Below are positions 60,381-61,726 of a DNA stretch of 64,000 nucleotides, piece by piece (within the stretch, counting starts at the first letter, position 1; the number at the start of each line of letters is the position of its first letter). A program made the translations under genes and the position numbers. The DNA is from Escherichia coli (lineage in GTDB: Bacteria > Pseudomonadota > Gammaproteobacteria > Enterobacterales > Enterobacteriaceae). The notes under the pieces were generated by a model. That model worked only from the letters and a program-made list of their open reading frames with translations, was not told the origin of the DNA and made no database searches. The stretch is taken from NCBI RefSeq assembly GCF_030384885.1, contig NZ_CP128613.1; one strand, given 5' to 3'.

Positions 60381-61013
60381 TCAGTACTCTCTCATATCCG
60401 GCGTATCCTGCTTTTCATCAGGGGTCTTCGGTGGGGATTTCGAGGCTGCACAGTTCCAGTTAATCAACAGTGAGTCACCATTAACCTGCTCCTTACCCTG
60501 CAAATGAATTTTTGTGCCGTTGAGAAAAATTTGTCCGTCCTTAGTCAGCACCAGCCTTGCCTTACCACAGCAGAGTTCCAGATGCTCACCGGCGGAGTAA
60601 ATCGCGGTCTGCCCGGTATCATCCTTTTTCGTTTTACCAACGGTGAAGGTAACGTTATTTCCGACTTTGACGTCATAACCCAGCCCGACCATCAACGACT
60701 TATGCAAACCGATCTGCGAGGACTGCATCAGGGCCACCGAGGTGTTCATAATGCCACCTACCGTCGTCTGATACGCCACGCCCACGGTCAGCGCACGAAC
60801 AAGTCCAATCGTTTCCACCTGAACAGAGCCCACTTTAATGATCTGGTTACTGCCCACCGTCTCTATCTGGTTAACACCCACCGTCTGTATCTGATTGTTG
60901 GTAACCGCAATCATCTGATTGTTGCCGATGGTCTCAGCATGGTTGTTTATCACATCCGTGGTGCGGTTATTCAGCACCTCGGTACCGCCCCACCCTGATA
61001 ACATGATCTGCAC
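60381..61013 (-). pseudogene. VgrG C-terminal remnant (last about 210 codons of a T6SS spike protein)
   Basis: Repetitive beta-helix segment (...NQIQTVGVNQIETVGSNQIIKVGSVQVETIG...) and the C-terminal region typical of VgrG; no upstream VgrG N-terminus, AT-rich sequence begins at 61014. Confidence 0.65.
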
Positions 61014-61438
61014 ATTGCCATCTTAACGTCGTTAAACACTGGCTTAATAGTGGATATTTCAAATTAGGAATTTATTAAATTCACCTGATGAATATCATAA
61101 GCAAATAGCATAGAAAATAATGACAACTCCCCCGAGGGGACCATTTCCAAAGCACTGCACCACCACCTGGTGCCCGGATGATCTTGCTTCAGTGGTAAGA
61201 GTACCTGATTCATTGTTCCCAAAATGGTGTTTTCCCCTGCCCCTGCAATAACGTGCAGCTCTCACGTGATAATCTATTGATTAGGTTATATTAAGAATCA
61301 ATATTTGAAATACATCCATTTTCTTGAATAAATCAACATATTTATTTATCAATTGCTGTTTTAGCTCTGACTCATCAAACTCTCCATATTTTTCCTACAG
61401 ATAATCGCGAATAAATACAGAGAACGCCATTTATCCTT

Positions 61439-61651
61439 TTAGCATACCTGCCGGATATTTTTATTTGTATTAATATTAATTGCATCTCCAACTCCGAGCA
61501 TATCCATCATTAAAGACATTTTGAGATTATAGAATGCCTGTGATAACAACTGAAACATCTGCACAATGTGAATAGTTAGTTTCTTTTCAGAGGAAATGAA
61601 ATAGACAAGCTGAATGAAAGAGAGAGTGATATAAATTAAAAAACATAACAT
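61439..61651 (-). CDS. Small hypothetical protein (70 aa), possibly yncH-like
   Basis: ORF in an AT-rich intergenic block; length and position agree with the remembered small gene next to yncG, but the sequence itself was not recognised. Confidence 0.3.
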   Translation of the reverse strand: MLCFLIYITLSFIQLVYFISSEKKLTIHIVQMFQLLSQAFYNLKMSLMMDMLGVGDAININTNKNIRQVC

Positions 61652-61726
61652 GAATCTAATTAATTACGTCCATCATTGTGGATAAAGTTACTGAATAATA
61701 AATAACATAATCTTCTGGTATCCCAC

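What the first reader, a model, noticed from the sequence alone, without database searches (positions are those of the whole stretch)
60381..61726. VgrG 3' remnant and AT-rich relic upstream of the Rhs fragment, with no T6SS core genes in the window
The vgrG-rhs arrangement is the usual T6SS effector layout, but only the last about 210 codons of vgrG survive and AT-rich sequence begins abruptly at 61014. The locus looks like a decayed T6SS auxiliary island between yncG and yddH. A 70-codon ORF (61439-61651) sits in the relic region.
Basis: partly seen in the sequence, partly recalled or inferred. Interest (0 to 1): 0.4.

Follow-up and report, generated by a model that had tools for sequence, protein, structure and literature searches.

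The report
Truncated vgrG pseudogene beside yncH
This is an ordinary, recently broken copy of a known E. coli type VI secretion "spike plus Rhs toxin" gene pair. The AT-rich stretch next to it is not debris: it is the conserved small gene yncH and its flanks.

Summary
The ORF at 60381-61013 (-) carries the last 200 codons (residues 503-702) of a 702-aa VgrG. They are 100% identical to the intact gene of the nearest complete genome, E. coli 2013C-4282. Its first 10 codons come from non-coding upstream DNA.

A 1,866-bp deletion with its junction at 60983/60984 (TA microhomology) removed 1,505 nt of the vgrG 5' end. It also removed the 361 bp upstream, including the ribosome-binding site and the reported sigma-70 promoter. 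A separate ~2.5-kb frameshifting deletion broke the downstream rhs gene.

Both junctions occur in several independent public assemblies, so they are not assembly errors. The haplotypes are nested:
- rhs was lost first.
- vgrG was then inactivated twice independently, by this deletion and by an E378* nonsense mutation in sister isolates.

The window holds no T6SS core genes. The close relative has a complete T6SS cluster beside a tRNA-Asp gene, about 1.4 Mb away.

The "AT-rich relic" is intact sequence found in about 4,500 of 5,426 complete E. coli genomes. It comprises yncH (DUF5445, the 70-codon ORF), its spacers, and the outer 130 bp of a conserved arm upstream of vgrG.

Verdict: already known kind, low interest.

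The parts
60381..60984 (-). vgrG 3' remnant: codons 503-702 plus the stop codon of a 702-aa VgrG. It keeps the distal two thirds of the gp5-like beta-helix and the C-terminal region. The gp27-like hub, the OB fold and the first ~36 residues of the helix are lost.
   Evidence: 100% identical to L003 11889-12492. BLASTP gives 200/200 identity to residues 503-702. Pfam Gp5_trimer_C matches profile positions 35-111 of 112 at E 2.3e-12.
60983..60984 (.). Deletion junction (TA microhomology). Relative to the intact locus, 1,866 bp are missing: 1,505 nt of the vgrG 5' end plus 361 bp upstream. The junction lies at the centre of the palindrome CGGTACCG.
   Evidence: Breakpoint alignment and flanking sequences. 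The junction is absent from 5,426 complete genomes. It is present in 7 public draft contigs, and L007, L009 and L012 are 100% identical to the window across it.
60985..61115 (-). Retained outer ~130 bp of the ~490-bp conserved arm that precedes vgrG in several E. coli vgrG islands. Its first 29 nt supply the spurious GTG/ATG starts of the 210/207-aa ORF.
   Evidence: Alignment with the cusS-locus vgrG island. A 34-bp core also lies upstream of the B2 PAAR-vgrG island. The arm occurs in 4,598 of 5,426 genomes, median 2 places, unannotated.
61116..61438 (-). Locus-specific spacer downstream of yncH. It has a 51% G+C patch (61116-61270) with a weak terminator-like hairpin at 61140-61128, followed by AT-rich sequence. 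No gene or RNA was detected.
   Evidence: Composition. Terminator scan. No Rfam hit at E<=1, no tRNA, and a fold z-score of +0.83.
61439..61651 (-). yncH: a 70-aa DUF5445/YncH family ORF, 30% G+C, with a hydrophobic N-terminus. It is found only in Escherichia and its function is unknown.
   Evidence: Pfam PF17520 at E 2e-39, 133.6 bits against a cut-off of 25. Annotated as yncH in K-12 and other genomes. All 158 homologue clusters are at least 84% identical, and those that are named come from Escherichia or Enterobacteriaceae.
61652..61726 (.). yncG-yncH spacer (29% G+C). Similarity to phylogroup B2 strains, which lack yncH, ends at the yncG stop codon (about 61729).
60315..60380 (-). vgrG-rhs intergenic spacer (66 bp), unchanged from the intact locus.
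59967..60314 (-). rhs N-terminal fragment (115-aa ORF; DUF6531, weak PAAR match). It is terminated by the frameshift that the ~2.5-kb internal rhs deletion created at 59978-59980 (GTA microhomology, junction GGTACC).
   Evidence: Pfam. Breakpoints. The exact 115-aa product is encoded on 15 public contigs.
58601..59980 (-). rhs C-terminal part: the last YD repeats, the RHS core domain ending in a DPLGL motif, and a ~148-aa C-terminal toxin domain with no Pfam family.
   Evidence: Pfam RHS at E 1.3e-17. The C-terminal domain has no hit at E<=1. Colinear with L003.
58202..58600 (-). Intact 132-aa ORF immediately after rhs, in the position of the cognate immunity gene.
   Evidence: ORF list. Identical gene WP_000425544.1 in the relative. 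No Pfam family. The immunity role is inferred from position only.

Best explanation
The flagged stretch holds two different things.

(1) A vgrG pseudogene at 60381-60984. It belongs to the auxiliary T6SS effector module vgrG-rhs-immunity, the RhsE-type element that sits between yncG/yncH and yddH in most E. coli.

In the intact form, the VgrG trimer would cap the Hcp tube of a T6SS encoded elsewhere. In the closest relative that system lies beside a tRNA-Asp gene. The VgrG would carry the downstream PAAR-like/DUF6531-Rhs toxin into neighbouring cells, and the small ORF after rhs would protect kin.

In this lineage the module was dismantled stepwise:
- First, a ~2.5-kb frameshifting internal deletion destroyed rhs.
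- Then a 1,866-bp illegitimate (2-bp microhomology) deletion removed the vgrG promoter, ribosome-binding site, start codon and first 502 codons.

The remnant lacks the gp27-like hub and the OB fold that a spike needs to sit on Hcp. It is therefore a dead fragment. The 210-codon ORF is an accident of read-through into upstream non-coding DNA.

(2) The AT-rich DNA at 60985-61726 is undamaged, conserved sequence. It comprises the outer 130 bp of the conserved arm upstream of vgrG, a spacer, and the Escherichia-specific small gene yncH.

Shown: the identities, breakpoints, order of events, lost domains, loss of the promoter sequence, and the presence of a T6SS core in the relative.

Inferred: that the remnant is not expressed or functional; that vgrG decay followed from relaxed selection after the effector was lost; and that the 132-aa ORF is an immunity gene.
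For: - Identity: 200/200 aa and 604/604 nt match the 3' end of the intact vgrG of 2013C-4282.
- Intact protein: it has Phage_GPD at 28-327, Phage_base_V at 384-450 and Gp5_trimer_C at 467-576, and it matches solved VgrG structures.
- Breakpoints and microhomology.
- Promoter: the TTGACT-17-TATTAC site that Shimada et al. 2014 (PMC3946193) reported for the K-12 yncH-rhsE spacer maps to L003 14270-14242. That lies inside the deleted segment, and the site is absent from window 60000-62000. No sigma-70-like site is found in 60300-61800.
- Real alleles: both junction-specific ORFs are encoded on several independent public contigs, 15 and 7 respectively. Three loci are 100% identical to the window across both junctions.
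- Nested haplotypes: intact; rhs deletion only; rhs deletion plus vgrG E378*; rhs deletion plus vgrG 5' deletion.
- T6SS core: the relative has a full cluster at 2.456-2.489 Mb, and none lies in the region colinear with the window.
- Annotation precedent: NCBI's PGAP annotates the analogous remnant in strain AHB21 as an incomplete Vgr family pseudogene.
- yncH: Pfam DUF5445 at E 2e-39. The yncH region is present in 4,508 of 5,426 genomes.
- Prior description: the vgrG-rhsE island is described in EHEC (PMC7216683).
Against: - The ORF is still open, with possible GTG/ATG starts, and gene callers predict a 207-aa product. Translation via read-through from yncH is therefore not excluded.
- No expression data were available.
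- The window's own genome could not be examined for a T6SS core cluster.
- The immunity role of the 132-aa ORF rests on position only.
- Relaxed selection is inferred from just two independent vgrG lesions.
Confidence: 0.9

Rival explanations
1. The truncation is an assembly or sequence artefact. vgrG and rhs are multi-copy, so repeats could have been collapsed or joined wrongly.
For: Neither junction is present as one piece in any of 5,426 complete E. coli genomes. The window carries three private 1.4-2.5-kb deletions relative to a 99.7-100% identical genome.
Against: The junction-specific products are encoded on 7 (vgrG) and 15 (rhs) independent contigs from different NCBI and Logan samples. 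L007, L009 and L012 match the window 100% across both junctions. Intermediate haplotypes exist.
Confidence: 0.03
2. The 207/210-aa ORF is a functional short Vgr-like protein. It might be a free beta-helix/C-terminal adaptor fragment that still trimerises and binds PAAR/Rhs partners, or that interferes with spike assembly.
For: The reading frame is intact and 100% conserved. New in-frame GTG (61013) and ATG (61004) starts exist. gp5-type C-terminal helices can trimerise on their own (general knowledge).
Against: - The native promoter, ribosome-binding site and start codon are deleted.
- There is no good Shine-Dalgarno sequence before the new starts.
- The cognate rhs partner is itself broken.
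- The allele is confined to one clone with no sequence divergence, so conservation carries no signal.
- A sister lineage inactivated the same gene with a nonsense codon.
Confidence: 0.05
3. The 210-aa ORF is a phage tail-spike or other non-VgrG beta-helix protein, and the AT-rich DNA is a decayed prophage or island remnant.
For: The only Pfam hit of the fragment is the phage T4 gp5 C-terminal trimerisation domain. The flank has low G+C.
Against: The fragment is identical to the C-terminus of a protein with the full VgrG architecture and strong matches to solved VgrG structures. The AT-rich flank is colinear with the intact locus and with K-12, and it encodes yncH.
Confidence: 0.01

Closest known systems
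RhsE element of E. coli K-12 (rhsE pseudogene with ydcD, between yncH and the ISAs1/H-repeat copies)
   Same: Same chromosomal site (ansP-yncG-yncH ... ISAs1-yddH-nhoA). Same kind of element, likewise inactivated by a deletion that leaves an rhs C-terminal part and the downstream small ORF.
   Different: The K-12 deletion is independent and larger: L003 9626-14064, taking all of vgrG and the rhs N-terminus. K-12 has a different toxin/immunity allele (ydcD) and keeps the reported promoter sequence. The window keeps 604 nt of vgrG and the rhs N-terminus, and has two separate deletions.
Intact vgrG-rhs-immunity auxiliary module at the same locus (E. coli 2013C-4282; vgrG-rhsE island of EHEC EDL933, z2257-z2261, PMC7216683)
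   Same: Identical sequence apart from the two deletions. The gene order is vgrG, then DUF6531-Rhs, then a small ORF. It lies far from the T6SS core cluster.
   Different: In the window, vgrG lacks codons 1-502 and its promoter, and rhs is frameshifted. The module cannot make a spike or a full Rhs cage.
Other partial vgrG copies at this locus (strain AHB21 and relatives, annotated by PGAP as 'Vgr family protein, incomplete, missing N-terminus')
   Same: The vgrG 5' end and part of the upstream arm are lost through a microhomology deletion. The downstream genes are kept.
   Different: The breakpoints differ (L003 12799-14085). rhs is intact in AHB21. That junction is a direct-repeat junction, not a palindromic one.
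Orphan rhs toxin/immunity fragments (Rhs C-terminal tips retained with immunity genes in Enterobacteriaceae; my own knowledge of the Rhs literature)
   Same: An rhs C-terminal part plus an intact downstream small ORF are retained after the full-length gene is lost.
   Different: Here the fragment arose in place by internal deletion, not by displacement through a newly acquired C-terminal tip. Immunity function was not tested.

Membership tests
VgrG / TssI (T6SS spike) | N-terminal gp27-like hub domain (Pfam Phage_GPD) | tested here: not met
   Absent from the window ORF. Present at residues 28-327 of the intact orthologue. Deleted in the window.
VgrG / TssI (T6SS spike) | gp5-like OB-fold domain (Pfam Phage_base_V) | tested here: not met
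   Present at residues 384-450 of the intact orthologue. The window retains only residues 503-702.
VgrG / TssI (T6SS spike) | gp5 C-terminal beta-helix (Pfam Gp5_trimer_C) | tested here: met
   Partial match to profile positions 35-111 of 112, E 2.3e-12, 47.5 bits against a cut-off of 30.9.
VgrG / TssI (T6SS spike) | Descent from a bona fide vgrG gene (orthology) | tested here: met
   604/604 nt and 200/200 aa identical to the 3' end of a 702-aa VgrG that matches solved VgrG structures at E 5e-101. It is therefore a vgrG pseudogene, not a functional family member.
VgrG / TssI (T6SS spike) | A T6SS core cluster (tssA-M, hcp) in the same genome | not testable with these tools
   Only 64 kb of the genome is available, and it holds no core genes. 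The 99.7-100% identical relative has a full cluster beside a tRNA-Asp gene.
Rhs element / T6SS Rhs effector module | PAAR-like/DUF6531 N-terminus, YD repeats, RHS core domain ending in a DPxGL motif, variable C-terminal domain, downstream small ORF | tested here: met
   All parts are present but split by a frameshifting ~2.5-kb deletion. DUF6531 E 1.1e-16; RHS E 1.3e-17; DPLGL motif visible in the translation. The intact relative has 13 RHS_repeat matches.
Rhs element / T6SS Rhs effector module | Immunity activity of the downstream ORF against the Rhs C-terminal domain | not testable with these tools
   Position only. No Pfam family for either partner.
YncH / DUF5445 (PF17520) | Match to the family profile above Pfam's gathering score | tested here: met
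   133.6 bits against a cut-off of 25, E 2e-39. Same position and annotation as yncH of K-12.
YncH / DUF5445 (PF17520) | Evidence that it is a translated, selected protein | tested here: inconclusive
   Compared with K-12 there are 4 nonsynonymous and 1 synonymous codon differences, too few to judge. Homologues are found only in Escherichia, all at least 84% identical. No functional study was found.

The most novel reading that the evidence does not exclude
The three large deletions that separate this window from its nearest complete relative each join at the centre (within 1 nt) of a perfect palindrome. They are the osmC deletion at 28591/28592, the rhs deletion at 59978-59980 and the vgrG deletion at 60983/60984, and the palindromes are TCCAATTGGA, GGTACC and CGGTACCG. 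Independent deletions at the same locus in other strains show ordinary direct-repeat microhomology instead. If this is not coincidence, this lineage experienced a distinct deletion process that joins short inverted-repeat ends. A dimeric nuclease or topoisomerase exchanging half-sites would be one example.
Probability: 0.08. Interest if true: 0.45.

Novelty: already known. Interest (0 to 1): 0.12.

Why it matters
It matters little beyond correct annotation.

- The 210-aa ORF should be marked as a vgrG pseudogene.
- The 70-codon ORF is yncH.
- The AT-rich DNA is conserved sequence, not debris.

The locus gives a tidy small example of stepwise decay of a T6SS auxiliary module within one clone. 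The effector went first. The spike gene was then lost twice independently, while the toxin tip and the putative immunity gene were kept. This fits the general picture of Rhs/VgrG islands as fast-turnover loci.

Tried and rejected
- Assembly artefact: rejected, because both junctions recur in independent public contigs.
- Non-VgrG beta-helix protein: rejected.
- Hidden RNA gene or tRNA remnant in the spacer at 60985-61438: no Rfam hit at E<=1, no ARAGORN tRNA, and no fold better than shuffles (z +0.83). An 11-nt resemblance to the 3' end of tRNA-Phe (TCCGGGCACCA, minus strand near 61170) is recalled from memory only and was not tested further.
- Source genome: an exact scan of the GTDB representative genomes for the vgrG junction found nothing. 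The 210-aa GTG-start product and the osmC-junction fusion ORF are not on record.
- Literature: searches for yncH, rhsE and vgrE mostly returned unrelated acronyms. yncH appears only in gene lists.
- General palindromic-junction rule: rejected, because the junctions of K-12, AHB21 and strain 300709 are not palindromic.
- Restriction-site (KpnI/MfeI) cut-and-join: rejected, because the parental ends do not contain those sites.

Full report
**What is at the coordinates**

The window is the E. coli ansP-yncG-yncH ... yddH-nhoA-nar region. Around the finding, all of these lie on the minus strand:
- yncG (61727-62344), a glutathione S-transferase
- a 70-codon ORF (61439-61651)
- a 210-codon ORF (60381-61013)
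- a 115-codon ORF with a DUF6531 domain and a weak PAAR match (59967-60314)
- a 507-codon ORF with RHS repeat and RHS core domains (58601-60124)
- a 132-codon ORF (58202-58600)

Downstream lie a group II intron (Rfam RF01999 at 57864-57981; ltrA at 56241-57758), an ISAs1 copy and yddH.

**Identity of the 210-codon ORF**

The nearest complete genome is E. coli 2013C-4282 (NZ_CP027579.1). It is 99.7-99.9% identical over the rest of the window. From 56611 to 64000 it is 100% identical apart from the deletion junctions.

At this locus that genome has an intact 702-aa VgrG and an intact 1,406-aa Rhs core protein. The VgrG has Phage_GPD (28-327), Phage_base_V (384-450) and Gp5_trimer_C (467-576). 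It matches solved VgrG structures at E 5e-101.

Residues 11-210 of the window ORF are 200/200 identical to VgrG residues 503-702. This is a vgrG 3' remnant.

**The truncation point**

Window 59978-60984 equals L003 11486-12492. Window 60980-64000 equals L003 14359-17379.

The window therefore lacks L003 12493-14358, which is 1,866 bp: 1,505 nt of the vgrG 5' end plus 361 bp upstream. The junction lies at 60983/60984 on a TA microhomology.

Only 60381-60984 (200 codons plus the stop) derives from vgrG. Codons 1-10 of the ORF (60985-61013) are read-through into upstream non-coding DNA, which happens to supply a GTG and an ATG start.

The deleted 361 bp held the ribosome-binding site (GGAGGTTGCTATG). 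It also held the TTGACT-17-TATTAC site that Shimada et al. 2014 (PMC3946193) reported, together with H-NS binding, for the K-12 yncH-rhsE spacer. That site maps to L003 14270-14242 and is absent from window 60000-62000. No sigma-70-like site is found in window 60300-61800.

**The rhs gene is also broken**

A second deletion of about 2,507 bp (L003 8982-11488) has its junction at 59978-59980 on a GTA microhomology. It shifts the frame. That explains the 115-aa N-terminal ORF and the separate C-terminal ORF.

**Real or artefact?**

Neither junction occurs as one piece in 5,426 complete E. coli genomes. An exact scan of the GTDB representative genomes also found nothing.

However, the junction-specific 115-aa product is encoded on 15 public contigs. 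The 207-aa form of the vgrG remnant (ATG at 61004) is encoded on 7. Loci L007, L009 and L012 are 100% identical to the window across both junctions. The deletions are therefore real alleles of a circulating lineage.

**Order of events**

Four haplotypes exist, otherwise almost identical in sequence (L006 differs from the window at 4 further positions):
- intact (2013C-4282)
- rhs deletion only (L008 with a full 702-aa vgrG; L010, which covers only part of vgrG)
- rhs deletion plus vgrG G1132T, which gives E378* (L006, L011)
- rhs deletion plus vgrG 5' deletion (the window, L007, L009, L012)

The effector gene was lost first. The spike gene was then inactivated twice independently. I infer relaxed selection on a VgrG whose cargo is gone. 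That is an inference drawn from two events.

**T6SS core genes**

The region colinear with the annotated relative (window 1013-49505 and 51001-64000) contains no T6SS core gene.

The relative has a complete cluster at 2.456-2.489 Mb beside a tRNA-Asp gene. It includes tssB, tssC, tssE, tssF, tssG, tagH, tssJ, tssK, icmH/tssL, tssH, vasI, tssA, tssM, two hcp genes, and its own vgrG-rhs pair. The VasL gene is frameshifted. This cluster is about 1.4 Mb from the yncH locus.

The module in the window is therefore an auxiliary ("orphan") vgrG-rhs island. The window's own genome could not be checked.

**The "AT-rich relic"**

This part of the interpretation does not hold. Window 60985-61726 is colinear with the intact locus and with K-12. 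The yncH region occurs in 4,508 of 5,426 genomes.

| Segment | Content | G+C |
|---|---|---|
| 60985-61115 | outer part of the arm upstream of vgrG | 36% |
| 61116-61270 | spacer patch with a weak terminator-like hairpin | 51% |
| 61271-61438 | spacer | 27% |
| 61439-61651 | yncH | 30.5% |
| 61652-61726 | yncG-yncH spacer | 29% |

Composition is and the hairpin.

The roughly 490 bp upstream of vgrG is mostly conserved with the cusS-locus vgrG island (its outer 112 bp are 92% identical). A 34-bp core of it also precedes a PAAR-vgrG island in a B2 strain. The 141-bp outer arm occurs in 4,598 genomes, with a median of two places per genome, and is unannotated.

The 70-codon ORF is yncH:
- It matches DUF5445 at E 2e-39.
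- It is annotated as yncH in K-12.
- Its homologues are restricted to Escherichia, with 158 clusters all at least 84% identical.
- No functional study was found.
- It differs from K-12 at 4 nonsynonymous codons and 1 synonymous codon, too few to judge selection.

No Rfam family, tRNA or unusually stable fold was found in the spacer.

**Context: a hotspot with frequent decay**

The ansP-yddH interval holds alternative islands in other strains:
- PAAR-vgrG-M35 peptidase, without yncH, in a B2 APEC strain.
- vgrG-DcrB/EagR-rhs, without yncG or yncH, in MEI003.
- Only an arm-like motif plus ISAs1 in UPEC U13A.

About 3,400 genomes keep the vgrG 5' end and upstream arm at high identity.

K-12, AHB21 and strain 300709 carry independent deletions. 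They remove L003 9626-14064, L003 12799-14085, and an internal rhs segment whose ends lie within about 35 bp of the window's. Their junctions show direct-repeat microhomology or filler bases.

The vgrG-rhsE island has already been described in EHEC (PMC7216683). NCBI's PGAP already annotates such remnants as incomplete Vgr pseudogenes.

**Unexplained observation**

Relative to 2013C-4282 the window has exactly three large deletions and no large insertion. The third removes 1,418 bp at 28591/28592. It takes out the 3' end of a 3-hydroxybutyrate dehydrogenase gene, all of osmC and the start of bdm. Its junction is also absent from all 5,426 complete genomes and from the gene-position index.

Each junction lies within 1 nt of the centre of a perfect palindrome of 10, 6 or 8 bp. 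In simulated 1-3-kb deletions, P(>=6 bp) is 0.086, P(>=8 bp) is 0.029 and P(>=10 bp) is 0.009. By my own calculation, Fisher's method gives a combined probability of about 0.002.

The parental ends do not contain the restriction sites. I have no mechanism for it and treat it as a probable coincidence worth one genome-wide check.

**Verdict**

This is a real but ordinary feature: a very recent vgrG pseudogene in a decaying, well-known RhsE-type auxiliary T6SS module, next to the intact conserved gene yncH. It is already known in kind and of low interest.

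Noticed in passing
window 28591/28592: A 1,418-bp deletion relative to the nearest relative. It removes the 3' end of a 3-hydroxybutyrate dehydrogenase gene, all of osmC and the 5' end of bdm, leaving a 125-aa fusion ORF (28318-28695). The junction is absent from all 5,426 complete E. coli genomes, and the fusion product is not on record.
   Followed up: partly
window 28586-28595, 59977-59982, 60980-60987: All three large deletions join at the centre (within 1 nt) of perfect palindromes: TCCAATTGGA, GGTACC, CGGTACCG. Simulation of random deletions gives a combined P of about 0.002. Other strains' deletions at this locus are not palindromic. No mechanism found.
   Followed up: partly
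window 60985-61115 (and L003 13998-14490; L015 4661-5150; L005 5762-5795): An unannotated conserved arm of up to ~490 bp precedes vgrG or PAAR in at least three different E. coli T6SS auxiliary islands. Its 141-bp outer part occurs in 4,598 of 5,426 genomes, with a median of 2 copies. It could be a shared regulatory region or a homology anchor for island exchange.
   Followed up: partly
window 56241-57990 (-): A group II intron (ltrA ORF; Rfam RF01999 at 57864-57981, 93 bits) sits about 200 nt downstream of the putative immunity ORF, followed by ISAs1. The relative has the same rhs / small ORF / ltrA / ISAs1 order beside its main T6SS cluster. Four of the public draft contigs end at window 57734.
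   Followed up: no
window 55048-56099: 42 of the 46 differences from the relative in window 51001-59980 cluster in the ISAs1 copy. This suggests a different ISAs1 allele or gene conversion between copies.
   Followed up: no
L014 5126-5134 (E. coli 300709), compared with window 59978-59980: An independent ~2.5-kb internal rhs deletion at the same locus, with both endpoints within about 35 bp of the window's. Several other genomes show DUF6531-fragment/rhs C-terminal pseudogene pairs. Internal rhs deletions of this size appear to recur.
   Followed up: partly
window 58601-59044 and 58202-58600 (-): The ~148-aa Rhs C-terminal domain after the DPLGL motif and the 132-aa downstream ORF match no Pfam family at E<=1 (one only at E 0.07-0.15). 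This is an uncharacterised putative toxin/immunity pair, different from ydcD of K-12.
   Followed up: partly
window 54048-54683 (-): A 211-aa hypothetical ORF with no Pfam family lies where K-12 has pptA, between ISAs1 and yddH.
   Followed up: no
window 61439-61651 (-): yncH differs from the K-12 allele at 4 nonsynonymous codons and 1 synonymous codon. Database members have varied predicted lengths (70-100 aa). Its status as a translated gene remains unproven.
   Followed up: partly
window ~61165-61180 (-): The sequence TCCGGGCACCA resembles the 3' end of E. coli tRNA-Phe (from memory, untested). ARAGORN finds no tRNA here. Probably chance.
   Followed up: partly
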